Shown here: piece by piece, positions 365 to 63,956 of the stretch
Position numbering within the stretch: position 1 is the stretch's first letter
Layout: every line of letters begins with the position of its first letter
Assembly (NCBI GenBank): GCA_040954595.2
Contig: CM082589.2
Location: 7,251,186 to 7,315,185 of the forward strand
Reading direction: 5' to 3'
DNA from: Balanoglossus misakiensis
Taxonomy: Eukaryota; Animalia; Hemichordata
DNA: 64,000 nucleotides
Program-made: the position numbers and the translations under genes
Notes under the pieces: model-generated
Told to the model about the DNA's origin: nothing
What the model saw: only the letters and a program-made list of their open reading frames with translations
Database searches by the model: none

Positions 365-3300
365 GTATCGTATGGAGCCTCGAACCCCGCACTGTCCAAC
401 AGAAAACGCTATCCCTCCTTTTACCGCACCTACGCTCCCGATTCTGTGTACAACCTGGCCCGACTCGACATCGTCAAGTATTACGGCTGGACCAAAGTGG
501 CGACTTTACATGAGAACCAAGAACTTTTCTCTTTGGTAAGTGAATCTGTGATCGCAGGACAACCCCTTCCCGTCTAGAACAGGGTGACAGTCGAGCGATG
601 AGAATATAGTCCATGGGCCAGACAGGAATTTGGTATCAGAAAGATGGACAAAGCCTCATGTGGTTTTTTGGAAAGGCCTATATCTCTAGATTATGAATTG
701 GGGTGATAGCCCTGCCTATCGAGTAGCTTTCTGCATTTTTCCCCTCAAAAACTAATATAAGAACATAAAAATTTCCGACCCAAATTTTGGGGGTAGGGGA
801 ACTTTAAATTGCTGTAACTCCAGCAAAACTAAAGCCAGAACAGTCATTTACCACTCAAATTGTGTGTTTTTTAGAACTCTACCAATATAATATATTTTGG
901 TGGTAATTTGTTTTGAATTGAGGTCAGTAGAGGTCAAAAGGTCATGAAATTTGGGTCATTCTGAAAATTTGTAGTATGACTATTTCTTGAACGATTTTTT
1001 TGAACTTAAGTCTTTAAATGCCATTTACAAGATAAAATACTCTCCCAGAATCTATTTCAAACCAATAGAAAATCTTATTATTCATTTATGACCAGAAAAA
1101 CACAAATAAGGAGAAACGACAGAAAGACATCCAATTTTCCACCCAGATTTAAGGGTAGGGGAAACTTAAGTTCTTGTAACTCCGGCAAAAATAAACCCAG
1201 AACAGTCATCTACCACTCAAATTGTGTGTTTTTTAGAACTCTGCCAATATAATATATTTTGGTGGTAATTCGTTTTGAATTGAGGTCAATAGAGGTCAAA
1301 AGGTCATGAAATTTGGGTCATTCTGAACATTTGTAGTATGACTATTTCTTGAACGATTTTTTTGAACTTAAGTCTTTAAATGTCATTTAGAAGATAAAAT
1401 ACTCTCCCAGAATCTATTTCAAACCAATAAAAAACCCTATTATTCAATTACGATCAGAAAAACACAAATAGAGAGATACGGAAGAATGGCACAAGACTTC
1501 AGACCCTGATATTGGGGTAGGGGAAACTTAAGTAGTTGTAACTCCGGCAAAAATAAAGCCAGAACAGTCATCTACCTCTCAAATTGTGTGTTTTTTAGCA
1601 CTCTACCGATTGTAATATGTATTTGTTGCAATTTTATTTTGAATTTAGGTCAATGAGGTCAAAAGATCACAAGATTTGGGTAATTTCGAAAAATTATGGT
1701 ACGAACATTTCCCGCATTAATTTTTTAAACCCAAGTCTTCAAATGTCATTTATGAGATAAAATACTCTATACCATTTTTTTCCGACCAATTGAAGACCTT
1801 ATTATTCAATTAAAATCAGAAAAAAATTAGTAGAGAAACGGGATAATAACAAACAACTCCCACGGATTTTGGGGTAGGTTTGGCCATCTAACAGGTAAGT
1901 ATACACCCAACTGATCATGCACATATGGTGTTTAGGAGAACGGATGTGCAGATTTGTGAACCTTTGCATGCTGCTCATGTGCACTGTACTTGTATGATGA
2001 TTCCTAACAATACTACGAGAAGGGGCCATTATAGCATTGTAGCTCTGATTGTGTATTATTGTTGGATACCATCCTACAGTGTACAGGCACAGCAGATGAC
2101 AAGCCAAGCAAAGGTTCAAAAATCTGCTTATTTTTTTTCCTCAACACAATATGAGCATGATCTATTTATATTCAGGTCCACTATAATAAATAAAAAATGG
2201 CAAACCCATCTTCTATTCCACACTAGAGGGCTCGACGGGATTGTTTTCTCGACTGTCATGAATCCGACCATAAAGCAAGCCTCGTCACTCTACAAGATCA
2301 CGCCTTCTGGATAACTTTGCTGAATACAGCTAACATACAAAAATACAAACCAATTCAGGACCTCGCCATTGGTTTGGGCGAAGGTGAAATTCCTTAGGTG
2401 CAGTGCCATCGGAAATGCCGAAGTCTCTTTACGATGAAAAAGGCTCTTGAATCTATCCTTTCTAAAGAGCAGTCGTCATCAACTGAGGGAACCAATACAC
2501 TGGAACGTGAAAAGAGGTCGAGCATACAAGGGTCTCGGGTGTACGATCATATTTGCCTATTTTGCTCCACCACCAAGTACATGAAGGGAAGTAGGACAAG
2601 AGCTCCTTTAGTTCGTTGTCAGCAATTGCGTGCGGACAACACATTAAGGGAGGCAGCAACAAGAAAAAATGACAGTAAAATTCGTGCACTTCTCAGTCGT
2701 GAGTTGGTTGCTGCTGAGGGTCACTATCATAGAGCAGGTTCAAGTCATATGGAGGTTGATGAAAGTCAACATGATCAAGATACTAGTTATGAGGATGTCC
2801 TGCAAATTGCTCAAGAAGAGTTATTTTCTTTTATCAGAAATGATTTGTTCACAAACCCTGAGGTAGTTCCCCTGACTGATCTATCAAACAAGTTAGTTAC
2901 CAAAATGCTCCAACTTGGTGTTAAACAGGTTAACAATTCCACCAACAAAACTTGCAGCATACGCTAAATACGGAATTCAAAGGGACATTGATTTTTTTGG
3001 ATGATGTAAATGGTAGGGTGCTTGTATATCCGTCATCACTAGATATAGGTACTGTTGACCTGAAGTACAATGCTGTAAGAAAAGAACTTCTTGCAGCAGA
3101 AAAACAATCACATGAAAGTATCATCACCGCATCTGCTCTAATCCTGCTTACGCTGCTTGAATATCAGGCCTTGTATAGTCCCTATAACACTTTCTATGAT
3201 AGTGACCCTCAGCAGCAACCAACTCACGACTGAGAAGTGCACGAATTTTACTGTCATTTTTTCTTGTTGCTGCCTCCCTAAATGTGTTGTCCGTACGCAA

Positions 3301-6300
3301 TTGCTGACAACGAACTAAAGGAGCTCTTGTCCTACTTCCCTTCATGTACTTGGTGGTGGAGCAAAATAGGCAAATATGATCGTACACCCGAGACCCTTGT
3401 ATGCTCGACCTCTTTTCACGTTCCAGTGTATTTGTTCCCTCAGTTGATGACGACTGCTCTTTAGAAAGGATAGATTCAAGAGCCTTTTTCATCGTAAAGA
3501 GACTTCGGCATTTCCGATGGTACTGCACCTGAGGAATTTCACCTTCGCCCAAACCAATGGCGAGGTCCTGAATTGGTTTGTATTTTTGTATGTTAGCTGT
3601 ATTCAGCAAAGTTATCCAGGAGGCGTGATCTTGTAGAGTAACGAGGCTTGCTTTATGGTCGGATTCATGACAGTCGAGAAAACAATCCCGTCGAGCCCTC
3701 TTGTGTGGAATAGAAGATGGGCTTGCCATTTTTTATTTATTATACTGGACCTGAATATAAATAGATCATGCTCATATTGTGTTGAGGAAAAAAAATAAGC
3801 AGATTTTTGAACCTTTTCTTGGCTTGTCATCTGCTGTGCCTGTACACTGTAGGATGGTATCCAACAATAATACACAATCAGAGCTACAATGCTATAATGG
3901 CCCCTTCTCGTAGTATTGTTAGGAATCATCATACAAGTACAGTGCACATGAGCAGCATGCAAAGGTTCACAAATCTGCACATCCGTTCTCCTAAACACCA
4001 TATGTGCATGATCAGTTGGGTGTATACTTACCTGTTAGATGGCCAAACCTACCCCAAAATCCGTGGGAATTGTTTGTTATTATCCCGTTTCTCTACTAAT
4101 TTTTTTCTGATTTTAATTGAATAATAAGGTCTTCAATTGGTCCGGAAAAAAATGGTATAGAGTATTTTATCTCATAAATGACATTTGAAGACTTGGGTTT
4201 AAAAAATTAATGCGGGAAATGTTCGTACCATAATTTTTCGAAATTACCCAAATCTTGTGATCTTTTGACCTCTTTGACCTAAATTCAGAACAAAATTGCA
4301 ACAAATACATATTACAATCGGTAGTGTGCTAAAAAAACACACAATTTGAGAGGTAGATGACTGTTCTGGCTTTATTTTTGCCGGAGTTACAACTACTTAA
4401 GTTTCCCCTACCCCAATATCAGGGTCTGAAGTCTTGTGCCATTCTTCCGTATCTCTCTATTTGTGTTTTTCTGATCGTAATTGAATAATAGGGTTTTTTA
4501 TTGGTTTGAAATAGATTCTGGGAGAGTATTTTATCTTCTAAATGACATTTAAAGACTTAAGTTCAAAAAAATCGTTCAAGAAATAGTCATACTACAAATG
4601 TTCAGAATGACCCAAATTTCAAGACCTTTTGACCTCTATTGGCCTTAATTCACAACGAATTACCACCAAAATATATTATAGTGGTAGAGTTCTAAAAACA
4701 CACAATTTGAGTGGTAGATGACTGTTCTGGGTTTATTTTTGCCGGAGTTACAAGAACTTAAGTTTCCCCTACCCTTAAATCTGAGTGGAAAATTGGATGT
4801 CTTTCTGTCGTTTCTCCTTATTTGTGTTTTTCTGGTCATAAATGAATAATAAGATTTTCTATTGGTTTGAAATAGATTCTGGGAGAGTATTTTATCTTCT
4901 AAATGACATTTAAAGACTTAAGTTCAAAACTATCGTTCAAGAAATAGTCATACTACAAATTTTCAGAATGACCCAAATTTCATGACCTTTTGACCTCTAT
5001 TGACCTCAATTCAAAACGAATTACCACCAAAATATATTATATTGGTAGAGTTCTAAAAAACACACAATTTGAGTGGTAAATGACTGTTCTGGCTTTAGTT
5101 TTGCTGGAGATACAGCAATTTAAAGTTCCCCTACCCCCAAAATTTGGGTCGGAAATTTTTATGTTCTTACATTAGTTTTTGAGGGAAAAAATGCAGAAAG
5201 CTACTCGATAGGCAGGGCTATCACCCCAATTTATAATCTAGAGATATAGGCCTTTCCAAAAAACCACATGAGGCTTTGTCCATCTTTCTGATACCAATTC
5301 ATGAAAAATCGGGTCCTGGCCCATGGACTAATACTGGCATTACATAGTCTTACTACATGACATGAAGCCCTTGAGCCTGACAGTATACCGCGTTGTTTGG
5401 TCCACAGAAGTAGTAGATACAACCCAAGTTGTTCAGTGGTCTAACACAAACAGTGTTTGTTGTTACCCTATCTGCATACGCCATATCATAAAAGACATTT
5501 ATTGTAAGCTAATCTGTTACTTGAATCTGTGGAATTCTCTTCCTATCATTCGTTCGTTCATTCTGTCTTTTCAGACAATCAACGACCTGAGCTCCAGGCT
5601 GCGCGATAACGGTATCGATATCCTGACGTCAGAGAGCTTTACTGTCGATCCATCAGAGCAGGTCAAAAATTTGAAGGTAGGATGGTCTATAATCATGCTA
5701 TGCTATGCTATGCTATGATATGATATGATATATGATGATAGGATATGAAAAATACAGCACCCTTGTCTATTTTAGGAAGGATTATCTGTCGTAGTCCAGT
5801 GTGAACATGCACTGTGTGTATATCTCACAAGCTCATTAGCGGATGGCAGAACAATGTTATAACTGTAGTAGGGGCGTTTAATTGGGGGAAATGTAACCTT
5901 TACTTCCAGTCGAATAATGCCATAACCCATGACGTTAGGGTATTTGTAGTGCTATCCAAGTACCAATTAACAGCGTTCCAATTTCTCGGCGATACACAAA
6001 CTAGATTAACCGATTTGTTATGGGAGCATGAGCTTATCCGTGTCCTTCGAAAGTCGCACAGAGAGAGAGAGATTGTGTTTTCAATCCCGATTGTATTCTG
6101 TGTGATTGCGTTTCCATCCCTACACGCGATTGCTATTTTTCACATAAGACTTCCATGATTTTTCCCACTCGAAGCAGTCGTTACGTATTCGGTGATATTT
6201 CTCTCTCATTTGAATATCTCTACTTATTTTCGTGAAGTATGTTTTCACGACCCCTCACTTTATATTACATCGTTCATTCCTGGAAAACATACACCATTCT

Positions 6301-44911: not shown

Positions 44912-47900
44912 ATGCCGGGCACAGAAGAAGAAGTTGTTCGAATCGGCAAACAACTGGAAAAAATGGCATCGAGTAGCGTGAGTGTACATGCATCATTCGC
45001 AACTGTAGTCTGTATACTAAATTCGTCTAAACGAACACATGTCAACTCATTTTACTCATAACGACTATTTTTTACCATTTGCAGGACCATGGAAATGCCC
45101 TAGATTTGTTGAAAGCGCTGAAGGATTTGCCGATTTCTTTAGAGGTCTTGCAGGTAAACATCACATTTTCTTGCGCCTTAGCTTCCGTATCAATCATCAT
45201 CATCAACACAGATGGGTCGTTTGATTTGTTTGTTGTCGTTTTCCACCAGGTCATTCAGAGGTCACGCACAATGATGACGCGTGAGAAAGTTACATTTGTT
45301 AGTTAATAATTCACGATATTCCCTGTGTTATAGGCTTTCGTGATATTGTTGAGGCCACATTTTTATCTAGACTAAAACAATTTATATTTTTTTTCTGTCC
45401 TGCAGAAAACAAGAATTGGGATGTCTGTGAATTCATTACGTAAGCAAAGCAGCAATGATGACGTCATTTCACTCTCCAAAAATTTAATAAAAAGCTGGAA
45501 GAAGCTTTTGCCAGGTTAGTACTTTTTTTTCATATAAAGCACAAAACCTGGATATAAAAACATATTATAAACACATAGAATTACCCTAACGCTGCCAAGT
45601 CAGTTGAAACTGGTTTGATTTCCAGGGTGCCTAGAATCCTGGCTCCCATGATACCTGTTAGACTGCCAAGTGCGTGTTATATCAGTAGGGCCTATACAAG
45701 ACCCTCAAACCAAACCAGTGCAAACCAGTGTGATTTGGTACATTTTACAGGGGGCTCAGACTGCCAAGTGTGTCTAAGTGCATATGAGAGTCATGCCAAG
45801 ACAGTCAAAATATGTTTTAGAAGAAAAAGTAGCAAATATGTATTTTTAAAGGGACTTGACACTCTAGCAGGTATGACACCCAGTAGCATAAGGGTTAATG
45901 GTATTTTGATTGATGTAAGAGGGTGTTGTACCTTACATGTACAGATCACACACATATCTCTCATATCATGTTTGAGACGACCCTGATCAAACTTCTTTTA
46001 TCATTATACATTTACCATACCCGCATCCTCCTCTAAATTTCACCAGGGCCTCGACCATCCCGAGACAGTCAAGACTCCTCCTCCAGGGATTCATTCACAG
46101 ACGCCAGCAACGACGGCTCCTCGCGAGATTCCGGCAACGGCAACAGTTCACAATCCAAGCTGACGGCTAATGCTAATCCACTCCCAAAGACAAACGACTC
46201 CGTCAGGGAAAAGTGTCGAGACATGCTGGCAAATGCTCTCAAAACTCCATGTAAGTTGTGCATTGTCTCCTTCCATTTTAGTAACAAAAAACCCCACACC
46301 TGTAATGGATAAAAGCATTTCATGATTGTGGAACACAGCTACAGTCAAACCTGCCTATAGTGGCCAGTCAAGGGACTTTCCTAAACTGGCCTTTATAGAC
46401 AGGTGACCTTTATACAGAGGTTATTTAATGCACATGTGAATTGCACTGGGACTGTAACAAAGTGGCCACTATATACATAATATAGGGGTGGCCACTAACA
46501 GAGGTATGACTGTTTTTGTTGCAACTCCACCATGCTGTAAATCTGAAAATTTGACTTTTGTTCTGTTTTCAGTGGAGGAGGTCGACACATCAGAATTTGC
46601 TGACCCTGAAGAACTTGCAGCGGCCATTGAAGATTATATCCTTTTAATCAAAAAGATACTGTAAAACACTTTATCTTTGCGATCAATTAATATTCGCGAA
46701 ATACGTGAGAGCCAAAAAAGCATGAAAATAAAAAGTCGCGTAAATTGTTTTTGAAGATAACGATGCAGTGAATGAAATAAGAGAATACTCGCGAAACAGT
46801 GGCCTCTCTCGATACTGCGAAAAATTTCAACTCGCGGAAAATAAAGTGTTTTACAGTAAATTGCAAAGCAATTAGCGTGAGCAAAGTCAAGAAAAATGTG
46901 AACATGCACTGCATCATGGCCATAACCTATGGGCTCTTCAGCACCTCAGTCCTGAAACAGGGACTGTGAGTTAACCAGGCCAGCGTTCTGTTTCCCCGAG
47001 GCCACATCAAAGGCAAATTCTTCACAGTGATGTAGACATGGACCCTCAATGTGACTGACGTGCGCTTGACTCCTTAACTCTGCGCACGTATATTTACCGA
47101 ATTCACCAACACAGACACAAAGTACAAGAACCGAGTGCGAAGTCGTGTGGCAAATCTCAAAGATAGCAGAAATCCAGGCTTGAGGCAAAAGGTGCTTGCA
47201 GGGGATATCTCGCCCGAGAGAATGGCTGTTATGACTGCTGATGTAAGTAAAACCATTAGTTTTTTTTTTTTTACAGAAATTGTTTGTTATGAACTTAATT
47301 TATTCACTAGAATTTTTTTAAAATATAATATGAGATTGTTGAATTGAATTGTCACTGCGGGTGATGATAGAATTGCTTTATTTCGCCACTGGTGGCAGTA
47401 TTCACGTCAGCTGTGTTATTTATAGCAGTGTTTTGCAAAGGTTGGGGAACATTGGTAATGGATTTGGGAACCTCTGAACATTTCTACAACCCCCTAATAT
47501 AACTACATTGATACACCCAGGGGAACCCCAGTTAAATGACTGGGGAACTCCAGTAGATATTACCTAGGTACCACCCTTAACAAAACCACTGTATAGGCAG
47601 TTGAACATTATCAGCCAAAATTCATTCAAAGAAAATCTATTTTTTGTTCGTGTTTTGTGAAAAAAAAATACACATCCACAGGAGATGGCGAGCGACCAAA
47701 TGAAAGAATTGAGAAAAAACTACACAAAAGAAGCTATCAGGGACCATCAAATGGCGACGACGGGCGGCACGAAGACAACCCTTCTCAAGTGTGGGAAATG
47801 TGGCAAGAGAAACTGTACATATAACCAGGTAATTGGAGGTTTTACTAGTGGTGGATGGAAATACTGTAAAACACTTTATTTTCGCGAGTTGAAATTTTCG

Positions 47901-49001
47901 CAATATCGAGAGAGGCCACTGTTTTGCGAGTATTAATTTTCGCGTTCTCTTATTTCATTCACTGCATCGTTATGTGCAAAAAAAATTTACACTCCTTTTT
48001 ATTTTCATGCTATGTTGGCTCTCGTGTATTTCGCGAAAATTTATTGCTAGCGAAAATAAAGTGTTTTACAGTATCTCTGACTGGCATTTTTTTTCTGGTG
48101 GTCAGGTGGTCATTCAATGCCCAGTGCATCTGCTAATAGTGTATAGCGAATATTCTTTGCGTCTTCACTTCAGTGCTAAACTGTGAGGAATCTCTCTGGT
48201 CTGCATTTCAGGTTCAAACTCGTAGCGCTGATGAACCCATGACGACGTTTGCATATTGTAACGAGTGCGGCAATAGATGGAAGGTAAGGTCGTTGACCTC
48301 TCACGTGGGGAATTTAGCAATTTTGAACTTGTTCAATATAGAATGATCAATCGGACAACAGATATTAATTAGTAGATTGATTGTTAAATACCTTTATCCT
48401 GAAAAGCTAACAGCCAGCAATGGTTATGTTGTGTGTGTACTGATAAGTCGCAAGATTGGCCCTAATGTCAGCCGAGAACTGACTTAGCAGCAACCTATTT
48501 GCTGTTCAAAGTCTTGTTTCCTGTCAGTGTCATGCATTAAAGGGACAAAGTCTCTCTCTCGCTGCCCTTTTTTCCATTAATTATATTTGATACAAGACAC
48601 TGTTTGTTATTCTACATGTGGATATATAGTGAATGAACGTTCAACCACACACAACTTCCATCCCTCTTATAGACAGGAGAGTGAAAAAAATCGCCAAAAT
48701 GAATAATCGTTCTTTACCATTTATTCATTTTGGGCGAGTTTTTACTCTCATATCATACAAGTGGGATGGAAGTTTTGTGAGGTTGATTATTGATTCACTA
48801 TATATCCACATGTACATTAACATAAACAGTGTCTTGTATCAAACATAATTAATGGTAAAAAGGGCAGCGAGAGAGAGACTTTGTCCCTTTAATGTATTTT
48901 GGACTAATCGCGCTTTCATATACATGTACCTATATGGTAAACCAAAGAGGCGCTTTCTAATCAATGCCCTTTTCTCTCTCTCTCTTTTTCAGTTCTGCTA
49001 A
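44912..49001 (+). CDS. TCEA1: Transcription elongation factor TFIIS (TCEA1/2/3 ortholog)
   Basis: Exons 44912-44977, 45085-45153, 45406-45514, 46047-46250, 46573-46635, 47088-47242, 47682-47828, 48212-48283, 48993-49001 give 297 aa. Motifs [33 protein letters not shown] and [23 protein letters not shown]. Confidence 0.96.
45581..45898. mobile_element. MITE family E (piggyBac-like)
   Basis: Homologous to 18730-19029; ends AGGGTTAA. Confidence 0.78.
46340..46514. mobile_element. pogo/Tigger-like MITE
   Basis: TA-CAGTCAAACCTGCCTATAGTGGCCA...TGGCCACTAACAGAGGTATGACTGT. Confidence 0.6.
46636..47087 (+). other. U12-type (minor spliceosome) AT-AC intron of TCEA
   Basis: 5' ATATCCTTT, branch point TCCTTAAC at 47071-47078, 3' CAC. 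Splicing restores IEDC-IFTEF in frame. Confidence 0.92.
46657..46858. mobile_element. MITE family B inside the U12 intron
   Basis: TACTGTAAAACAC...GTGTTTTACAGTA. Confidence 0.82.
47862..48073. mobile_element. MITE family B
   Basis: TIRs with TA flanks. Confidence 0.85.
48537..48892. mobile_element. MITE family A, full length
   Basis: TTAA TSD with long TIRs. Confidence 0.88.
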
Positions 49002-49456: not shown

Positions 49457-49869
49457 TTAAGGATGTACGTTCAGTAAAATTGAAAGTATTGTCATTTTTT
49501 TTAATTGTGGATTTTGGATCCTCTTTTTTATGTATACTGAAATTTCGTAATAAAATATAGGGGTCTTGTTTTTGAAATACAGAGCCATGAATTTAGTCGA
49601 TAATAGAAAAAAACTGCTGACTCAGCATTTTTCACCAATGGTTTGTCTATGGGCAAAATTTTTAACGCAATTTATCTCAAAATAGAGCACGGTGACCCCT
49701 ATATTTTATTTGACCAATGAATTTAAATTTACTGAACTGAGCTTTGTGTGAAATTATGTGAAAATGACAATAGTAGAAGTTTGTTTTCTAGCAATTATCA
49801 ATGTAATCCTATGGGAAAAAGACCGGGCGCGCAGTGTTTCCGGTTTATGTTCTGCGCGTACATCCTTAA
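49457..49869. mobile_element. MITE family C
   Basis: TTAAGGATGTAC...GTACATCCTTAA. Confidence 0.85.
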
Positions 49870-51108: not shown

Positions 51109-53620
51109 ATGTCTACAAATAATCAACAACAAGGGCAGAGTTCTGCCTCTGCAGCAGCAGCAGCAGCAACAACAGGACACTGTCTAGATATTGGAGTTAC
51201 CGGATCTGATGACGGACACACTGGAATCAGTGAACAGGTTATTATCGTGAAAGACATGGGCGTTCAAACGGACATTTCTGCCTGGGACAAGAAACCGTGC
51301 ACCTGTAACTGTCACATTTATCTTCCTGCGCCTCACGCCAGCCCGCAGACCGAACTGGACACCGTAGACGGAATGCACGTCGACAAGCCAGTGCAGGCTT
51401 TCAGGTTGAAGAGACACAGCCTATCAGAGCCAGACTTAACGAAATCATTCGGCCGTGTTTCTGTCGATACAAAGCTATATGATCGCCATATCTCTGCAGA
51501 TAATGCAGCACACGCATCGGCAGAAGCAAAACCACCTATCAAACGCACACAAGAAGGCACAAGTAACGCGTTAGCTGACGTTTCTAATGGCGAGACCAGC
51601 TTTGTAGAGTCCAGCAGTCCAGATGCAGCGGATGGACCCATCACGTTCGAGGTCCCTACAGGAGACACTGGCCCATCAACAGGAAAACAGAATGCCAATG
51701 ATGATGATGATGATGATGATGATAAAAAGAGCATCTCATCGACTGAAACCGACTCGTCAAAAGCCACACCCAGTGAGCAGGTTGCAGATAAGTTATCGAC
51801 ATCTTCAGTGATGATATCTGGCAGATTCCCTGACCTGATGAAGAGTAGGAGGGTAAGCATGGACATACTGATGTCTCAAAAAGGAACCCAGAATCTCTCT
51901 GAGGAGATGATGGCCGACAAGATCGCAACTCAAGTGGGTGAGTTTTGTTTTCACTTCAAGTTTATCTTATGTGTCTCGTCCCATTACATTGAGATTGCTA
52001 GAAAACTCACTTATACTATTGTCATTTCCATGAAGTTTTACACATAGCTCATAGTCGAGTGAAACCAAATTCATTGGTCAAAATAATTCTCATTTTGATC
52101 GATTCTTTTTCTTTATTCTCCAACCAACACAACCTGTCTCTGATATGATCACAGAGAATCTGACAGCTACGATCTTGAAGGAAATTAGTGAAACCATACA
52201 AAGAACAGTTTCCAAGTGCAAGCTAGGTGATACCCATGTGCATGGAGATCTGCACCTTCAGGTTGGAGACAATAATAAAATGGTGGTGTGCAAGGGAGAA
52301 CAAGAAGATTCTGACAGGGAACAGAAGATGAAAGCTGATGGAGAAGTCTCCAAAGGGACTGATTTGGCGGTCGCACATGGAAGACCAGTCATCAATCACG
52401 GTGGCAGTTCTGGTTGGTCTCATTACTTATTTTTACTCTTTCAACCATATTTTCCTTTGTAGAGTTCAAACTTTAACATAGAAAACAACATATTTTGACC
52501 AAACCATGGTGATGTATTGTATTGTATTGTATTGTATTGTATTGTATTGTATTGTATTGTATTGTATTGTATTGTATTGTATTGTAATTCTGTACTTTGT
52601 TGCCATAAATGATTCTAGCATTCTGGGCATAACATTCATGAGGTCTGACGTCACTTTGCAGGAGTCTCAAGCGAAGTTGAAGAAGAACGGAGAAATAAGA
52701 CGTTGAAAGTGAGAGAAGAAATGACCAAGGCTATACAAGAAGATGATCTCTACAAGATGTCCGAGCTTCTGAAGACGTCAGGGTGCATGGATGATATTGA
52801 TGGTTTTACTCCGCTTCACTTGGTCGCTCTGCATGGCCGTTATAGATTAGTGGCGCCGCTGTACGCCCTGTGCGATTATCGGACATTGTACGCGATGCAA
52901 GTTGGCCCGCAGTCCGAAGAGTACTGCGGTATGACGGCTACAGAAATGGCCAAAAGGCTAAGTGGTAAGGTCATTGCCAAAAAGCCAAGCGCTAACACGG
53001 TCGCCAAGAAGCTACTTCATTCTGCGACGCTGAATATGATTGAAGTACATTACAAGTTCACAAAGGGCTTGAGCGAGCTGCATCTCGCGGCCCAGCGAGG
53101 GTACCTGTGCGTTGTGTTTTCGCTCTGCAGGAAGAGTAAGAATGTTGACGTGAAAGGCATGTACGGCAACACGCCCTTGTACATGGCGTGCGTCAGTGGC
53201 AAGCTGGAAGTGGCCAAGATCCTGGTGAAGTACGGCGCCGACATCAGACAGCAGAACGACTGGGGCGACACGCTGCTGCACAGGACCGCCCGCTGGGGGC
53301 AGTACCGCATCGTGGAGTACCTGCTCGGCACGGACCTCGTCGCCGACATCAACAAGAGGAACAGGCAGGGCTGGACTGCGCTGCACATGGCCGTGTTCTA
53401 CGGCAGCAGATCGGTGGTCAAGCTTCTGTTGGGTCGCGGCGCCACTCCCGACACCCGCGACATGTCCGATTACAGTCCCCTGGACACGGCACTAGAGGAG
53501 GGTCACAAGGAGATCGGCCGGATGCTGAAAGAAGCAGGCGCTACGCCTACGACCCCTGACCTGGGTCACTTTGACAACCAGCCTGGATTTCCGGATAGTA
53601 CACGGCAGAGAATTCCTTAG
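51109..53620 (+). CDS. Ankyrin-repeat protein with disordered N-terminus and a RHIM-like motif (paralog 1)
   Basis: Exons 51109-51937, 52155-52412, 52662-53620 (phase-1 introns) give 681 aa. Exon 2 has HLQVGDNNKMVV. Exon 3 has ANK repeats (GFTPLHLVA, GLSELHLAA, GNTPLYMAC, GDTLLHRTA, GWTALHMAV, DYSPLDTA). Confidence 0.8.
52513..52586. repeat. (TATTG)n microsatellite
   Basis: Seen directly, in intron 2 of ankyrin paralog 1. Confidence 0.95.
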
Positions 53621-54664
53621 TAAAAGCACAGGGTATAATGAATCCCGTGTCCAATTTCAGTTTTTGAATTTTGTCCAGTGACACGTTATAATAATCATGT
53701 CCAGTGACACGTTATAATAATCAGTCAGTTGCCACCTACATATGGTGGAAACTTATCAATAGTGTCCACTCTGTTGCAGTCTCTGTGCAGTTTGCATGTG
53801 CATTAGTTTACTTGTATATATAAAGCCATCTATCTAAGTATCTTGCAGATAAAGTGTAGAAAAAGTCTCTTGACTACCTCTATAATACGATCATAATGGA
53901 TTGCCGACATACGTCCAGGCATACAACATGCGAACTCAATAAAGGGAGAATTGGTTTCAATTAAGACTTAAGTTTTATTGATGAACCGTACTTTGTATTA
54001 ACTATAACGTTCACAAAAGTTTCATTATGATTTCATTTTAATAAAGCATACTTCTAACAATACGACGAAATGTGCTGGAATATTCCGACCAGTAAAAATC
54101 GAGAGAAATTAAGCAGAGGAGGCGATGACAGCGCAGACATGCACCACTGCGCACGCGTAGACTGATATCATGGAAACCCCCTCTGACCTGAAATAACCCT
54201 AGTTTCATATACGTTTACCTGGGCCCAGAGCGCTGAAGAAAAAAAAATGGCTTAATTTTCCCAAGGCTGTCAACGAAAGGAACGCACGGATCTCTTGTTA
54301 ACTTTGTATGTCGCATAAATAGACGTTTACCAGCACAGGTGAGATATATATTTCTACTGCAAAGAACGCTGTAACACATTCCTATGTTTCAGACATACAC
54401 GTATGTCGTTATTGTCAGCTTACTTCCGTCATGGCTGTGGTCCTATTGGAATGCGCCTATTACTCGATCGAACCAGGGTTGAACGATAGACCCTCGACAG
54501 TTACGAACGCGACCAACTACCGATTCTATTTTGGCATTCAAGAAAACGATCCTGCGTAGACGAACCACCATGAAATATCAATCAAAACACACCCATTTTT
54601 TCTCCGTTGACAGCGACAGCTACGAAGTGTAACTTTGCTTTGGTGTTGTCCGCACCATAGTAAC

Positions 54665-54768
54665 CACAGGCGTTTGATCCGATCGCTTCGCGATGGTCGC
54701 TGCAGTAACCGTATATGTATACGGTTACTGCAGCGACCATCGCGAAGCGATCGGATCAAACGCCTGTG
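54665..54768. mobile_element. 104-bp perfect-hairpin MITE with 8-bp TSD
   Basis: 51-bp perfect inverted arms CACAGGCG...CGCCTGTG with a 2-nt loop; ATAGTAAC duplicated at 54657-54664 and 54769-54776. Confidence 0.9.
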
Positions 54769-55120
54769 ATAGTAACCCCAGCCTTGTGTACGTGTCCCGG
54801 TTTTGCTTTTATGGTCAACTGACCTCAGGTCTACGTGCAATTCTGTACACCGGCGTAAGGCACGTGTTAGCTTCAATCACATTGGCCGCGGTTCAATTGT
54901 TATTTACATATAATGGTTATTCGCTTTATGTGCACGTCTTTGTCCTTGTCACCTGGCCTTGCACGAAATAAATAATGCGGAAGTAACAGTAATGTGTATA
55001 ACCCTATCTAGCTGACACGACACGAACAAATACTATTTCCACGACTGTTTGAGTTTATGTAAACTTTTAATTTTGTCACAGAACACGAACGAATATTGGT
55101 GAATACATTGCCACGACAAC

Positions 55121-57366
55121 ATGCGTCAATGCTCGCACTGTCTGGGAGAGTATTCGGCACAAGACAGACATGTTGTGTGTCCAAGATGCCGACAGTGCAC
55201 GGAAACTTGTGCGATATGTGGTCAAAACTCGCCCGGGCGGTGCCATCCACCAGAAGGTCCGGGGGCCAGTCCAGCACCGATCCCCTACTACGTCCCTGGA
55301 CTTGCCCCGGTACAACCCTGGCCGCAAGGTAAGATCATTTGTAAAAAGGCGTGTCCGTTCGGACGCTATAAATTTTCGCGAAATACGCGAGAGCCAAAAT
55401 AGCGTGAAAATAAAAAGTCGCGTAATTTTGTTTTGAATATAACGATGCAGTGAATGAAATAAGAGAACGTGAACATTAATACTCGCGAAACAGTAGCCTC
55501 TCTCGATATCGCGTACATTTCAACTCGCGAAAATAAAGTGTTTTACAGTATTTTTTCAGAAGTGAAAAAGACAACGAAAGATTTTGGTGTAACCCGTGAA
55601 CGTTGAACATCGTTGACCAGGCAGTGATCATGAGGTCGACCTGATAAATGGGACAGACAAAATGGCAAATATAATACAATGCAATGTGATGATATTGTAA
55701 TCGCTTTTTCTACCAGGTGCGACAAACATTTATAACATTACCGCGAATTGTGTTCAGATTGGTGACCAGGCTAAGATGGGATATCACACGACACCTTTTC
55801 CGACTTCAGACGATAGCAGACTCGAAGGGGGTAATGAGGGCGCCTGCGCGTCCACTCTCCAAAGCGACTGGTTGCCACGACAATCTGAGGAACGCGCCGG
55901 ACCATCCAAAGGGGCACGCCACCAAGACAGCGCCCCATACGGTGATGATCGAAGGGACCAAAGTCGCGGGGTCCCCCGATGTGGTTCAGGTATAGTACGT
56001 TGGCTGTATTTGCATGGCGGGACAGGGCAAAACGCGAAACTTGGTCTTAATTAACAGAGAAGTACGGTTATACAGTTTTGATATTTTAGGAAATTGGTCT
56101 TAGCTTCAGTAGTCAAAAACAACATATATAATTTGGCGGTCAGTTCTGCATATTTGTACATGTATTAATCTTTTCCATGCAAATAAATGTTGTACATTGT
56201 TTTCCAGAAGGCGACTCCTTTGGTGGGTTAATACAGATTGGGAATGATAATGAAATGCGCGTCGACAGTGGGGATGTTGTTTTGGACCCAGGGGAAGATA
56301 GTAGTGGATCGGACGACAGCAATGTATCAGAAGATGAACCGAGTGGGGAATTGCCCAGCGCAAGTACTGAATGTATGTATCTATGTAAGCCTAAATAGGC
56401 CTATGTACATGTAGGTCTATGTATCTAGACTAAATGTAAGCTAGAATCTCGTCACAAGTCCATGGGGCGTGAGAATTTCAGAAAATCGTTTCCATAACAA
56501 AATATCGTTCTCTCCATTTTGTCTCCGTAGCTGGACAAGCCACACCACAACAAAGTTTCGAACACAATGTTTTCTCGGCCATCGAAAACGACGACATTTA
56601 TCAGATGGCGGAAAACTTGAAGAAGGCAAATTATCTGGCCACGAGGGACGGTTTCACGTACTTGCACTACGTTGCTTTGCACAAAAGAAGGTTTATGGTT
56701 GCCCCTCTCTTCGCTTTGGGGAACTTCGGAAGGCTGGTGTGCGCTCGCGTCGGGTCCGAGTCGAACTATTCCGATTTCCACGGAATGACGGCTCGTGAAA
56801 TAGCCAAACAGATGAAACACGATGAGGTTTTGGAGAAAATTGAACGTCACGTAGAGTTTGAAAGGGGTATGACCGAACTCCACGTAGCAGCAAGAGACGG
56901 GGACGTCGAGAGAGTGAGGGCGCTATCTCAGCGAAACGATGAGCTTATTCACGCGAGAGGCTCGTTTGGCAACACTCCCTTGTACTGCGCTTGCGTCAGC
57001 GGCAAACTGGAGGCTGCCAAAGTCTTGATCTCGCAAGTTGCCGACATGGGATGCGCCAATCAGTGGGGCGACACAATTCTCCACCGCGCCGCAAGATGGG
57101 GACAGCACGAAGTCGTCAAGTACTTGTTGGAACGCCACGTCGTCCCCAGCGGTGTGTCCAACAAGGCGGGCACTACCCCTCTGCACATGGCTGTCCTCTA
57201 CGGCAGCGAAGAGGTGGTGAGATTACTTTTACGGCACGGAGCAGACCCCAAGGCTAAGAATCACCGATCACAAACACCACTTGACTACGCCAATGATACA
57301 GAAAGGTGTCCACGTTCTAGGCGTTCTGTTATTCTCCAAATATTAAAAAGTTGCCAAAATCGCTAA
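55121..57366 (+). CDS. Ankyrin-repeat protein with Cys-rich N-terminus and two RHIM-like motifs (paralog 2)
   Basis: Exons 55121-55328, 55717-55989, 56208-56372, 56531-57366 (all phase-1 introns) give 493 aa. Motifs NIYNITANCVQIGDQAKM and GLIQIGNDNEMRV. The ANK region is clearly homologous to paralog 1. Confidence 0.8.
55368..55550. mobile_element. MITE family B, 5'-truncated
   Basis: Internal family B sequence ending GTGTTTTACAGTA. Confidence 0.75.
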
Positions 57367-59233: not shown

Positions 59234-62200
59234 ATGGCGGCCTGTTTTGTCAAGACGTTGTTGGTGATTATTAACTTCATTCTTTGGGTAAGTCAATTCG
59301 TGTGATTTTAGTCACTTTGAACTTTTGAGCAACGCACAGGTATGTGGGGGTGACAGTGTTACGTTTATAGCCTACGTGGTCCGTGATAAAGCCTTAAACA
59401 GGCTTCAATAACATGTTTTAGACTGGACGTGAAATCGACATCATAATGGATGTGTATGTCATCCAGTTGGTATTCGACAACTCCACGGTCAGGGCAGCCA
59501 AAACATCAAAAACGAATAAAAAGTAAATGAATGTTTTATCTGGGGTTGTTCTTGACCCACATTGAAAGTGGAAAAAAATCGCTCGAGTGTTTTGACTGGT
59601 GGTTTACTGCTGGTACATTGCTCCCCCCCCACCCCTCTCCAATACGCCTGGCCATAAATACTGACAAGATCAATAACATTCACTCGTAAAAGTCCCCGAA
59701 CATTGTCACATGCGAGGCCTATTAAAACACCAAATTGATCTCAGACAACTTCATTATTGAGGAAGACGTCAGAAAAATCGTTAAGAATTTGGCGATTACA
59801 GAAATACCTTTATAAAAATAAAATATATGTCATTTTAAATTATACCGTGTTGGTTCTTCAGATATAAAAAGCTATCGTGAAGGCCGACATTTTGATCAAA
59901 TTATGCAGAAATAAATCTCGATACGAAATGAGTGAAAGAGCTCAGCGATTACACTAATCCGGTTTTGATGGAAGTGGTGCGTACTGTTACTAGGTGCGTG
60001 ATCAAATATTGATGAGAAAATTTGGGTTACAGTGTAATGGTGACCGCAATCACGACTTGTCAAACCCCGTAAATAGACTATTGTTGTTGAGTGAGAGAGA
60101 CACGGTAGCCGAACAAACATAATTAGCCCGCGGAAAAAAACAGGAAGCAAACAATGGCAAGTTCATTTTCGTCATCCATACAGAGTCAGCTACACCGAGG
60201 GACACAAGAAACCCCGACCTTGTTCACATTGTGGATTTTCAAAGTAAACTGCTATCACCCGCAGTGGCTCACAAACACAATATGGCGGACGGATTCTGCG
60301 TAGGCAAGCTGAGACTACAGTACATACATCACGACAAGTCCTAAAATCTTTGCACGGTCTTGAACTTGCTCAAAGAAGCGGCGTATAATTCGCTTTCAAA
60401 ATCGTGAAACATAAAATTCATCGTAAAAGTCACGTGGTATCCATTGCTCAAAATGACCAATACGTCTGTGTCTTCCATTAAACAATCAAAAATATTTTGT
60501 ACAGAAAATGTTTTTGTGTTTTTGCCTGTTTGTGTGTTTTGTATGTTTGTATCAGATTTGAAACCTACTAGAGCTTTAAAAAAAACTTTTGTCGACATCT
60601 TTTCTGCGGCCAAAATGTTCCAGTCAAAATTCAACAAAACCCAGCGACAATGGACGACTTTAAGTATTTTCATTTACGTGCAGTCAGGCCGCTGGCAACA
60701 TACGACCAAAGCTCCTTTTTTCCTTTACACGCGGAGTCGAAGATTTCATTGACTGTTTCCATGAGATTTAAACCTTTCAGAAAGAGGTATTTAGTGACTT
60801 TATTATTTGCCTGGGGTTCTAAATCAACTCTGCGCAGCAAATGTACAGAAAAAAACAATGGATCCTTGTAGTCTAAGATTGTCCGTGTGGGTAACAAAAC
60901 TGTTTAAATTTAAAACTCAGATTAACAACTGAATTTCTTTTTCTGTATTCAATTTAACAAGTGAACATGGACTGAAAAAGTACCAAAAATTCTGTCGCGA
61001 GGTGATTATAGTTGAGGAAAATATTGGTCTGTTACAGACACAGTAAGGGCGCCATTGAAATCCTAAAAATGTCGAACCACATTGCAACTCCTTTGAAGCG
61101 ACACAAAATCGTGACGTCGACATCCAGCATCCGGGTATCAAAAGCCACTTCTACTTTCATTTCCTTGGTAACAAGATAAATGTTTGGGGTCAAGGATACC
61201 CCCTTCGAAGCATGACGGCATCACGAGAACCAAAATAAACATAGTAGTCAGCGAAACGCATAAACAGAGCATTTGAAATACGCATGGTGCCATTGTTCAT
61301 GTAAATTACGTTGGTGTATTTTATTAATAAGGCATATGGCCACCCCGTCGAATATATGATATGCAAATGTGGCAATCCTGACCATGCGTTGATTTGATTT
61401 GGTGACGTCACACAGGTCGACACTGCAGGGTCAAACGCACTTTGATTATCTTCATGCTATTCTTGGCCTCTGTAAAGCTTGATCGTGTGACCTTGTTGGT
61501 GTGCAAAAGCATGATTGCTTTTGTAGTACATGAGCTTGTCAATACTAGTACGCTTTAGCTGTTAAAAAATCATGAACATCGCGCAGAACGTAAACCGGAA
61601 AACTGCGCGCACCCGTCTTTTTCGAATAGGATTTCATTGATAATTGCTAGAAAACAAACTTCTACTATTGACATTTTCCCGAAATTTCACACAAAGCTTA
61701 GTCCAGTAAATATAAATTCATTGGTCAAATAAAATATAGCGGTCACCGCGCTCTATTTTGAGATAAATTGCGTTAAAAATTTGCCCATAGGCAAACCATT
61801 GGTGAAAAATGCTGAGTCAGCAGTTTTCTTCTCTTATCGACCAAATTCATGGCTCTGTATTTCAAAAACAAGCGTGGTGACCCCTATATTTTATTACGGA
61901 TTTTCATTATACATACAAAGGAGAATCCAAAAATCCACAATAAAAAAAAAAAGACAATACTTTCAATTTTACTGAACGTACATCCTTAATGCCGGTCACT
62001 CTTCTTGTTCTGTTTCCAGGCGATAGGCGGCGGGATGATCGGGGGCGCTGTTTATATTCTGGTGTCGGAACCCGGTTCTCTGCCGTACGTTGAGATGGAG
62101 CTCATTGCCAGCGCCAAGGTAAGTGGGTGGGTGGATTGGTGGTGGTGGTGAGGTCAAAGGTCAATCTAAACCTGAAAGGCAAAGCGCAGCCGAACCAGTT

Positions 62201-63956
62201 AATTTAACTGGTGTCATGGAATCATGAATAAACGCAACCAAATTAAACAAGGTTTTTTTTTCTAATCATGGATGTACTGATAGAGACACCCATACTCTTT
62301 CCTATATTTTCCCCATTAACCATTTACATAAAATCATTTTGCATCTTTTTTTTAGGCAGTGCTGTACATCTGCATAGCCCTGGGAGCTATCCTGTTCATC
62401 ATCGGTAAGCTTGACACATTTTGCTCAATCACCCTCAAAATAGTAACTTGCCGCATTCTGTTATATATTCTTTATTAATACAACATACAATCTCTTTTTA
62501 GGGTTTCTCGGATGTTGCGGAGCCCTGGCAGAAAGCAAGGCTATGCTGAAACTGGTAGGTAATATACTTTGAGGTAATACAATAGAAAGGGACTGTAATA
62601 TTTCCGAATCCTTGTTCTCACTGAATGGAAAAGCGTAATGTTGATGTGATTTACATCTCATTTACATAATTCTTTCCCACAATACATTTCTGTATCCTGT
62701 CCTGTGTTTACAGTACATGACCATACTAACCACACTTTTGATGGGGGAAATCGGCATTGCGGTCTATCTGTACTTCATGAAATCACAGGTAGGTCCATAA
62801 AGAGGCAGTGTGCCCAAATATATTATTACGCACTATTTTAGGAACTTTTTTTCCTGAGGGTGCGGTCCAAACATGCATTATGGTGCACGTGACAAGTCGG
62901 CCATTTTCGACAACACGAAGACCGTTTATGAAACGTCATATATTATGCATGTGTCGGTTCACTTCGTATGCTTATACGTTTTCAGTTCCTCAGCTACGTG
63001 CAGATCGGTTGGAATTACCTGGACCAGACGACAAAGGACCTCGTTCAGGACCAGGTAAATCATGTTGACGTCACTATCAATGTAGGGCATTTTTTTTACT
63101 GCCGTGCAATCGATTTTTATAACATTATGGTATGTTTAGTGGTCTCCCCCTTTTGCAGTTGTCGAGTTTCTCTAAGAGAAGTCTGAGATTTTCGTTTTAG
63201 TCAAGTATCCTAGCTTTCTGCATGAAATATGAAGTAACCACATGACACACTGTTCTGTGATCGTCATGACAACCCCCCCTCTCTCGTTCAAATATAGCTG
63301 AAATGCTGTGGCTTGCAGAACTACACAGAATATCAAAGCAACTGGAACAACACGTTTTCTTGTTATCAGAACATTTCAGACCCCAGTACGATGTATGAAG
63401 TAAGTAATTACACCAATTTTCAATACTCATTTGAAAGGACCCGGGCATGTGGTGGCGCTCTTTTTTCGCCTGTGCCACCCATTAAAAATATGTGATTGGC
63501 CAGATCTAAATTTGCCATGGTAACTCTATGGCTAAATTTGCCTAGGTGACCGTATGCCTTTAACATCGAGCCAGCTGTACGGTAGAATTGGGGCAGGGAA
63601 CCATACCCTGTACTGTGTTTTGTGCAAACGACATCCTGTGCTCTGAAATCACTATTATTTCCCCCAATTCCAGAACGGTTGCTACGACATGTTTGTGAGA
63701 TTTCTTCTCGACAATTTGACATACTCAGCAAGTATCGGCGGGTCGTTGGTCGGCTTAGAGGTGAGTGACGTCGTACAATATTTGACCATAGTCGATCAAA
63801 ATCACGACAAAAACCAGTTCTATAAGAGATACTTTATCGTCAACTTGAATAAAACAAAATTTATCGTATCGCCCTGTTTTTAGGTCGTCGGAATTCTCCT
63901 GTCGTGTTACGCAATGAAGGCTTTTGAGAAGGCCAGTAAAGTTGGACCGGGACAAA
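59234..63956 (+). CDS. Tetraspanin (last exon beyond the window)
   Basis: Exons 59234-59287, 62020-62118, 62356-62404, 62502-62554, 62714-62788, 62986-63054, 63298-63399, 63674-63760, 63884-63956. Motifs K.LL..INFILW, GFLGCCGALAES, LMGEIG, QDQLKCCG and GC before TM4. Confidence 0.9.
61579..61989. mobile_element. MITE family C, reverse orientation
   Basis: Reverse complement of 38025-38441; ends GTACATCCTTAA. Confidence 0.82.
63430..63563. mobile_element. MITE family D, partial
   Basis: GTGCCACCCA..GTGATTGGCCAGATCT..GGTGACCGTATGCCTTTAA. Confidence 0.6.

What the first reader, a model, noticed from the sequence alone, without database searches (positions are those of the whole stretch)
51109..57366. 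Tandem pair of RHIM-ankyrin genes: candidate amyloid-based immune or cell-death signalling module
Seen: two adjacent paralogs share a C-terminal unit (AI..DD.Y.M.E.LK, DGFT.LH.VALH, VAPL.AL, GMTA.E.AK, then GNTPLY.ACVSGKLE.AK.L, WGDT.LHR.ARWGQ). Splicing joins this unit to short exons carrying LQVGDNNKM (52256), VQIGDQAKM (55752) and IQIGNDNEM (56231). Established: the RHIM core is (I/V)Q(I/V/L/C)G, typically followed by xxNxM/L (RIPK1 IQIGAYNYM, RIPK3 VQVGDNNYL), and it nucleates signalling amyloids. Inference: these are RHIM + ankyrin proteins with no kinase, death or TIR domain. They could act as sensors, adaptors or IkB-like decoys, possibly as a co-polymerising pair. I do not recognise this architecture as a named family.
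Basis: partly seen in the sequence, partly recalled or inferred. Interest (0 to 1): 0.88.

Follow-up and report, generated by a model that had tools for sequence, protein, structure and literature searches.

The report
Acorn-worm RHIM-ankyrin gene pair
Two neighbouring genes, with close relatives found only in acorn worms, join ankyrin repeats to conserved short motifs resembling the amyloid-forming RHIM tag of cell-death signalling, and they likely act as enzyme-free adaptors in an immune pathway whose partners are still unknown.

Summary
Observation confirmed and extended. Two paralogs splice (GT-AG, all introns phase 1) into open frames of 681 and 493 aa. Each has an acidic, low-complexity N-terminus with one or two RHIM-like motifs and a shared ankyrin unit. 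Ptychodera flava has orthologs of both, with motifs at matching places; Glandiceps has one too. In gene 1 the motif block is 19/26 identical to its ortholog, against 84/355 elsewhere in the N-terminus. Two P. flava proteins pass Pfam's RHIM cut-off; the window's own motifs score below it. A profile of the family motifs ranks RIPK1, M45 and RIPK3 amyloid chains as its top 6 of 9 PDB hits. No kinase, death, TIR or NACHT domain, and no IkB degron. No partner, RNA evidence or amyloid test was obtained. Best reading: hemichordate RHIM adaptors coupling a conserved ankyrin ligand to amyloid assembly; a decoy role is the main rival. New variant of a known kind.

The parts
51109..51937 (+). Gene 1 coding exon 1: acidic, low-complexity N-terminus
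   Evidence: Open frame, GT donor at 51938, in-frame stop before the ATG; residues 1-120 align to P. flava P0243 with score 90, 0 of 1000 shuffles
51250..51354 (+). Two LC8/DYNLL-type motifs (VQTD at 51250-51273; a weaker xQTE at 51334-51354) flanking a CxCxCH motif (51298-51315)
   Evidence: Conserved in P0243 and P0304, where the second is SQTE / TQTE. The first fits the [T/V/I]Q[T/V][D/E] core in PMC3078936. A single core arises in 8% of shuffles; binding untested
52155..52412 (+). Gene 1 exon 2 (258 nt, phase 1-1): predicted amphipathic helix followed by the RHIM-like block
   Evidence: 60% identical to P0243 over its first 53 aa
52205..52282 (+). Gene 1 RHIM-like block of 26 aa ending in LQVGDNNKM (52256-52282)
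   Evidence: 19/26 identical to P0243 against 84/355 elsewhere, Fisher p 5e-7; Pfam RHIM 15.0 bits, under the cut-off of 20
52662..53620 (+). Gene 1 exon 3: whole ankyrin unit (divergent cap plus repeat stack) and stop
   Evidence: Pfam Ank_2 E 7e-44; 154/270 identical to P0243
55121..55328 (+). Gene 2 coding exon 1: Cys/His zinc-finger-like motif C-x2-C-x9-H-x2-C-x2-C-x2-C-x3-C-x2-C (55130-55219), then a Pro-rich stretch
   Evidence: 73% identical over 33 aa to the N-terminus of P. flava P0001; no Pfam family above cut-off; zinc binding inferred from the residue pattern
55717..55989 (+). Gene 2 exon 2 (273 nt, phase 1-1) with RHIM-like motif 1, VQIGDQAKM (55752-55778)
   Evidence: Same position and same VQIG core in P0001/P0241; not significant in an unanchored local alignment (524 of 1000 shuffles)
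56208..56372 (+). Gene 2 exon 3 (165 nt, phase 1-1) with RHIM-like motif 2, IQIGNDNEM (56231-56257), and a loose degron-like string after it
   Evidence: Local alignment to the P0001 linker starts at the motif, 0 of 1000 shuffles; the degron-like match is weak
56531..57366 (+). Gene 2 exon 4: whole ankyrin unit and stop
   Evidence: Pfam Ank_4 E 3e-32; 61% identical to P0001; AlphaFold2 pLDDT 88.6

Best explanation
These are two intact, anciently duplicated genes of an ankyrin subfamily found here only in acorn worms, whose proteins carry conserved RHIM-like motifs in a predicted disordered N-terminus and likely work as enzyme-free adaptors that would stack into an amyloid signalling scaffold in innate immunity or cell death. 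Shown: gene structure (predicted from splice signals), orthology, motif conservation, domain content. Inferred step 1: the ankyrin unit binds a conserved host protein rather than a variable pathogen ligand, because it stays about 60% identical across species and keeps the same residues in relatives that have no RHIM. Inferred step 2: clustering brings the RHIMs together. Gene 2 has two RHIMs in one chain, as ZBP1 does; gene 1 could be dimerised by LC8 and by the helix before its motif. Inferred step 3: the RHIMs assemble with each other or with other RHIM proteins, and the scaffold displays ankyrin units that recruit an effector encoded elsewhere.
For: Orthologs of both genes in P. flava keep the motifs. 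Motif present in 8 of 12 rows of the short-ankyrin subfamily (support 100/99) and 0 of 11 long paralog sequences. One match in 302 other stored proteins, 354,293 residues. Pfam RHIM above cut-off for P0001 (21.0 bits) and P0241 (26.9). Family-motif profile against 177,635 PDB sequences: ranks 1-6 of 9 hits are RIPK1, M45 and RIPK3 RHIM chains, E 0.025-0.47; the window's three motifs alone still rank RIPK1 first and second of 3 hits, E about 0.7. P0001 residues 26-204 have pLDDT under 50, fitting the unstructured flanks described in PMC4262963. LQIG, the tetrad of the gene 1 orthologs, still works in human RIPK3, more weakly for NF-kB (PMC12119088). 58 invariant columns among 9 family sequences, all in the ankyrin unit.
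Against: The window's own motifs are below the Pfam cut-off (best 15.0 bits; 2 of 3 match at all), and full-length P0243 and P0242 gave no RHIM hit at E up to 1. The PDB E-values are modest, and the profile was picked for its QxG core, so that test is partly circular. Gene 2 motif 1 lacks the Asn that PMC4262963 calls conserved, and its exon is not significantly similar to P0001 without anchoring. The gene 1 and gene 2 motif regions are not significantly similar to the Glandiceps N-terminus in the same test (194 and 199 of 1000 shuffles). Four of 12 subfamily rows lack the motif, one apparently by decay (P0004). No partner: the motif profile returned 4 proteins among 149 candidates, all used to build it (a weak search). 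A table of RHIM-bearing RIPK1 proteins lists no Saccoglossus or Ptychodera entry (PMC12119088 supplementary file 4). Low pLDDT may reflect the 9-row alignment.
Confidence: 0.45

Rival explanations
1. Same RHIM chemistry, opposite sign: the proteins are decoys or caps, like insect Pirk or viral M45, that enter host RHIM amyloids and block them, perhaps as feedback inhibitors.
For: No effector domain in either protein. Pirk and M45 inhibit through RHIM-like regions (PMC13506858). Bulky ankyrin units could hinder fibril growth (inference). A loose degron-like string follows the last motif in gene 2, P0001, P0241 and P0002. One kB-consensus site lies about 950 bp upstream of the gene 2 ATG (54172).
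Against: The loose degron arises in 26-31% of shuffles for gene 2, P0001 and P0241 (5-7% for the Glandiceps proteins), and the strict one is absent. kB sites are not clearly enriched in the window (7 found; 8 of 100 shuffles reach 7). Tandem RHIMs are proposed to favour seeding (PMC4262963).
Confidence: 0.25
2. The motifs polymerise only within the family (gene 1 with gene 2) to build a scaffold for a non-immune job, for example one tied to dynein through LC8.
For: Only family members were recovered by the motif profile. The pair appears to have stayed adjacent: P. flava orthologs carry consecutive accessions XP_070555913-918 on records with one contig length. LC8-type motifs in gene 1.
Against: The RHIM proteins in the papers I read act in immunity or cell death. 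Tandem paralogs often stay adjacent without functional reason. The partner search was insensitive.
Confidence: 0.17
3. The motifs are not amyloid-forming: they are ordinary short binding motifs or relics, and the proteins are plain ankyrin adaptors.
For: Sub-threshold Pfam scores in the window; relatives without the motif exist; charged residues follow the cores.
Against: The motif block is the most conserved part of the gene 1 N-terminus (12 of 15 identical). Motifs persist in both paralog branches and in three species. Two orthologs pass the Pfam cut-off.
Confidence: 0.13

Closest known systems
Mammalian RHIM proteins RIPK1, RIPK3, TRIF, ZBP1 (Pfam PF12721); ZBP1 is closest in logic
   Same: QxG tetrad followed by N-x-apolar, in a predicted unstructured region; tandem RHIMs with a long linker and no enzyme domain, as in ZBP1 (PMC4262963, PMC9444067)
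   Different: No kinase, death, TIR or Z-alpha domain; ankyrin unit at the C-terminus; gene 1 tetrad is LQVG; function untested
Heterogeneous Branchiostoma floridae RHIM proteins (Kajava et al. 2014, PMC4262963)
   Same: Invertebrate deuterostome RHIMs in varied domain settings
   Different: The main text I read names NACHT- and death-domain settings and never uses the word ankyrin. Its Figure 1B (not visible to me) shows unspecified 'repeat domains', so a RHIM-ankyrin protein there is not excluded. No amphioxus protein was among the hits I could name
Fungal NWD2/HET-s type NLRs (amyloid motif, NACHT, WD/TPR/ANK repeats)
   Same: N-terminal amyloid motif, C-terminal repeat domain, adjacent genes sharing the motif
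   Different: No NACHT switch; the neighbour is a paralog, not a pore-forming or enzymatic effector
Pirk/Rudra and viral RHIM decoys (M45, ICP6)
   Same: RHIM-like motif without a signalling effector
   Different: Inhibition is not shown; the folded domain differs
IkB family
   Same: Acidic N-terminus plus C-terminal ankyrin repeats
   Different: No DSGxxS degron; ankyrin unit split into a divergent cap and a short stack; RHIM-like motifs present

Membership tests
RHIM proteins (PF12721) | Core tetrad (V/I)-Q-(V/I/L/C)-G (PMC9444067) | tested here: met
   Gene 2: VQIG and IQIG. Gene 1 has LQVG, off consensus at position 1; its orthologs have LQIG, a natural variant that functions in RIPK3 (PMC12119088)
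RHIM proteins (PF12721) | Pfam RHIM score at or above the cut-off of 20 bits | tested here: inconclusive
   Window exons scanned singly: best 15.0 bits; the spliced proteins were not scanned against Pfam. Orthologs P0001 21.0 and P0241 26.9 pass; P0243 and P0242 give no hit, P0002 8.7
RHIM proteins (PF12721) | Conserved Asn, any residue, apolar residue after the core (PMC4262963) | tested here: met
   Met by gene 1 and gene 2 motif 2 and by all 9 motifs in 7 stored homologs; gene 2 motif 1 has Ala in place of Asn
RHIM proteins (PF12721) | Motif flanked by unstructured sequence | tested here: met
   73-80% disorder-promoting residues; pLDDT under 50 for P0001 26-204 on a shallow alignment
RHIM proteins (PF12721) | Tetrad-dependent amyloid formation and binding to other RHIMs | not testable with these tools
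RIP kinases / TRIF / NLRs | Kinase, death, TIR or NACHT domain | tested here: not met
   No such Pfam hit in 7 of 7 exon frames or in the orthologs scanned
IkB family | N-terminal DSGXXS degron (PMC6027159) | tested here: not met
   0 strict matches in both window N-termini and in P0001, P0241, P0002, P0242, P0005, P0004; P0243/P0304 were scanned only to residue 46
IkB family | Ankyrin repeats that bind Rel domains | not tested
   No IkB chain among the rows shown by the fold searches, which does not exclude it
LC8/DYNLL clients (gene 1) | [T/V/I]-Q-[T/V]-[D/E] core in a disordered region (PMC3078936) | tested here: inconclusive
   VQTD conserved in P0243 and P0304; chance of one core is 8%; upstream D/K positions are shifted by one; binding untested

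The most novel reading that the evidence does not exclude
The pair is a self-contained amyloid switch that needs neither an NLR nor a RIP kinase: gene 2 (zinc finger, two RHIMs) senses and seeds, gene 1 (LC8-dimerised, one RHIM) extends the fibril, and the displayed ankyrin units carry the output. This would be an animal counterpart of fungal and bacterial adjacent-gene amyloid pairs, in a lineage where RHIM-bearing RIP kinases are not documented in the sources I read.
Probability: 0.15. Interest if true: 0.8.

Novelty: new variant of a known kind. Interest (0 to 1): 0.55.

Why it matters
RHIM amyloid signalling is worked out in vertebrates and insects; what RHIMs do in ambulacrarians is open, and one survey found their RIPK1 proteins lack the motif (PMC11507063). 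A conserved hemichordate family joining RHIMs directly to ankyrin repeats, currently named 'ankyrin-3-like' or 'uncharacterized' in RefSeq, gives small, testable proteins for asking how the motif signals without a kinase, and whether LC8 dimerisation can trigger it. The scope is so far one phylum, which limits general interest.

Tried and rejected
No whole genome is held for the window, so no genome-wide RHIM census or partner hunt was possible. RNA runs: none was listed; this is no evidence on expression. A search for longer homologs was swamped by generic ankyrins (best 120 of 5465 shown). ESM Atlas gave no usable hit for the zinc-finger region (best 0.77) or the helix-RHIM region. The zinc-finger motif matched nothing convincing in PDB (best per-stretch E 0.56) or Pfam; the spacing recalls LIM and DIRS-retrotransposon fingers (recalled, untested). 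Fold searches covered only residues 109-277 well; the cap was not folded alone, so no new fold is claimed, and its first half matches one ankyrin repeat by sequence. kB and IRF site scans showed nothing specific to these genes. Considered and rejected: a third paralog downstream in the window (tblastn finds only two ankyrin units; the downstream gene is a separate multi-pass membrane gene); pseudogenes (frames intact, orthologs conserved); recent duplication (each gene groups with its own P. flava orthologs; the gene 2 group has support 92/89, below the starred level; midpoint root only). Literature: searches listed no paper on a RHIM-ankyrin family in hemichordates, judged from listings; subscription journals are not covered. 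PMC12119088 supplements: 12 of 31 files plus file 26 were searched.
Full report
Setting. The window is intron-rich animal DNA. The two genes lie between a TFIIS gene (Pfam Zn_ribbon_TFIIS, E 6e-15) and a multi-pass membrane gene that looks like a tetraspanin (my reading of its GCCG motif, recalled; Pfam gave no hit on three short exon frames). All close homologs that I could name are from enteropneust hemichordates, so the source is likely an acorn worm (inference).

Gene structure. GT-AG models give a 681-aa gene 1 in three coding exons and a 493-aa gene 2 in four, with all introns in phase 1. Each ATG follows a splice acceptor and an in-frame stop. Each ankyrin unit is one exon, and each RHIM-like motif sits in its own frame-preserving exon of 258, 273 or 165 nt. 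No RNA was laid on the locus. Support for splicing is the intact frames and the RefSeq models of P. flava, which join the same elements in the same order; those are themselves predictions.

Family. The gene 2 ankyrin exon found 805 proteins among 1899 candidates; of the 120 listed, five matched over about 90% of its length at 44-61% identity, all from P. flava or Glandiceps talaboti. A two-sequence profile of the pre-ankyrin segment against 1.84 billion representatives gave 65 hits. The top six were family members. I named 10 of the new hits: 9 are hemichordate, 1 is a wasp protein with a generic ankyrin array. About 50 weaker hits, mostly matching one repeat, were not named. A tree of 19 ankyrin units separates a short subfamily of 12 rows (100/99) from 7 long paralogs. 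Gene 1 groups with P0243, P0304, P0005 and P0004 (100/99); gene 2 with P0001 and P0241 (92/89) (midpoint root). The duplication therefore likely predates the split from P. flava. The P. flava orthologs have consecutive accessions in the order gene 1, gene 2, gene 2, gene 1. This suggests a duplicated pair or uncollapsed haplotypes; I could not see coordinates. P0004 begins with the first 67 residues of the window's downstream membrane gene, which points to the same neighbourhood.

Are the motifs RHIMs? For: they are kept in 8 of 12 subfamily rows and 0 of 11 long paralog sequences. In gene 1 the 26-residue block is 19/26 identical to P0243 against 84/355 for the rest of the N-terminus (p 5e-7). 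Gene 2 motif 2 anchors a significant local alignment (0 of 1000 shuffles). P0001 and P0241 pass the Pfam cut-off. A seven-motif profile ranks RIPK1, M45 and RIPK3 chains 1-6 of 9 PDB hits. Against: the window's motifs score at most 15.0 bits; P0243 and P0242 give no Pfam RHIM hit; gene 2 motif 1 lacks the usual Asn and its exon is not significantly similar to P0001 unanchored (524 of 1000); the PDB test is partly circular. On balance the motifs are RHIM-like and, at least in gene 1, under constraint; amyloid formation is inferred.

Other parts. Gene 2 starts with eight candidate zinc ligands, 73% identical to P0001 over 33 residues and absent from the P0241 model; no family was found. Gene 1 has two LC8-type motifs around a CxCxCH, conserved in P0243 and P0304; LC8 is described as a dimerisation hub for disordered clients (PMC3078936). 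An amphipathic segment precedes the motif in gene 1 and three relatives (helical moment 0.38-0.57, no control run). AlphaFold2 folds the gene 2 unit at pLDDT 88.6. Residues 109-277 match standard ankyrin stacks (Z 23.5, rmsd 1.4, 159 aligned), and the best Foldseek hits are rigid DARPin-DARPin fusions at TM about 0.5. This fits a small cap joined by a long helix to a repeat stack.

Mechanism. Neither protein has a catalytic or death-fold domain, so any output must come from bound partners. The ankyrin unit is conserved, with 58 invariant columns in 9 sequences including members without a RHIM, which suits a constant host ligand better than a variable microbial one (inference). I therefore read the proteins as adaptors that link that ligand to RHIM assembly (0.45). 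Rivals are a Pirk- or M45-like decoy (0.25), a family-only non-immune polymer (0.17) and non-amyloid motifs (0.13). No partner was found. IkB membership fails on the degron.

What is known. I read parts 1-3 of 4 of PMC4262963 and searched its supplement; its figures were not visible, and Figure 1B may show RHIM with repeat domains in amphioxus. For PMC9444067, PMC11507063, PMC3078936, PMC12119088, PMC13506858 and PMC6027159 I saw matched passages only, plus part of the PMC12119088 supplements. None of those passages describes a protein made of RHIM plus ankyrin repeats. PMC9444067 notes that a poxvirus ankyrin protein binds the RIPK3 RHIM, so ankyrin repeats can recognise RHIMs. Seven searches listed no paper on this family. 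Earlier notes of this scan held nothing on this sequence or genome.

Verdict. A real, conserved and apparently undescribed architecture of a known motif: new variant of a known kind, interest 0.55. It would rise if the pair co-assembles without a kinase or NLR.

Noticed in passing
window 54657-54776: Perfect 104-bp hairpin (51-nt arms, 54665-54715 and 54718-54768) flanked by an 8-bp direct repeat, between the two genes; looks like a small fold-back transposon insertion with a target-site duplication.
   Followed up: partly
window 59234-62788 and P0004 (XP_070555910): The downstream tetraspanin-like gene's first three exons match the first 67 residues of P. flava P0004, which continues into a decayed RHIM-exon segment and an ankyrin unit. 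Either a chimeric gene model or a real membrane-anchored member of the family.
   Followed up: partly
window about 52955-53010: Gene 1 has an 18-residue basic insertion in the ankyrin cap that all other aligned family members lack; it looks like an internal duplication.
   Followed up: no
P0247, P0248, P0250, P0253, P0256, P0257, P0277: A wider hemichordate family of long ankyrin arrays begins with the same divergent cap and has no RHIM-like motif.
   Followed up: partly
window 44914-48285: TFIIS gene upstream on the same strand.
   Followed up: partly
window 2398-2964 (+) and 3151-3732 (-): Two near-identical long frames in inverted orientation, possibly a transposon-related inverted duplication.
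   Followed up: no
window about 46650-46840, 47860-48075, 55360-55550; about 49500-49830 and 61570-61985: Two dispersed repeat types recur in introns and spacers, seen as near-identical DNA and translations.
   Followed up: no
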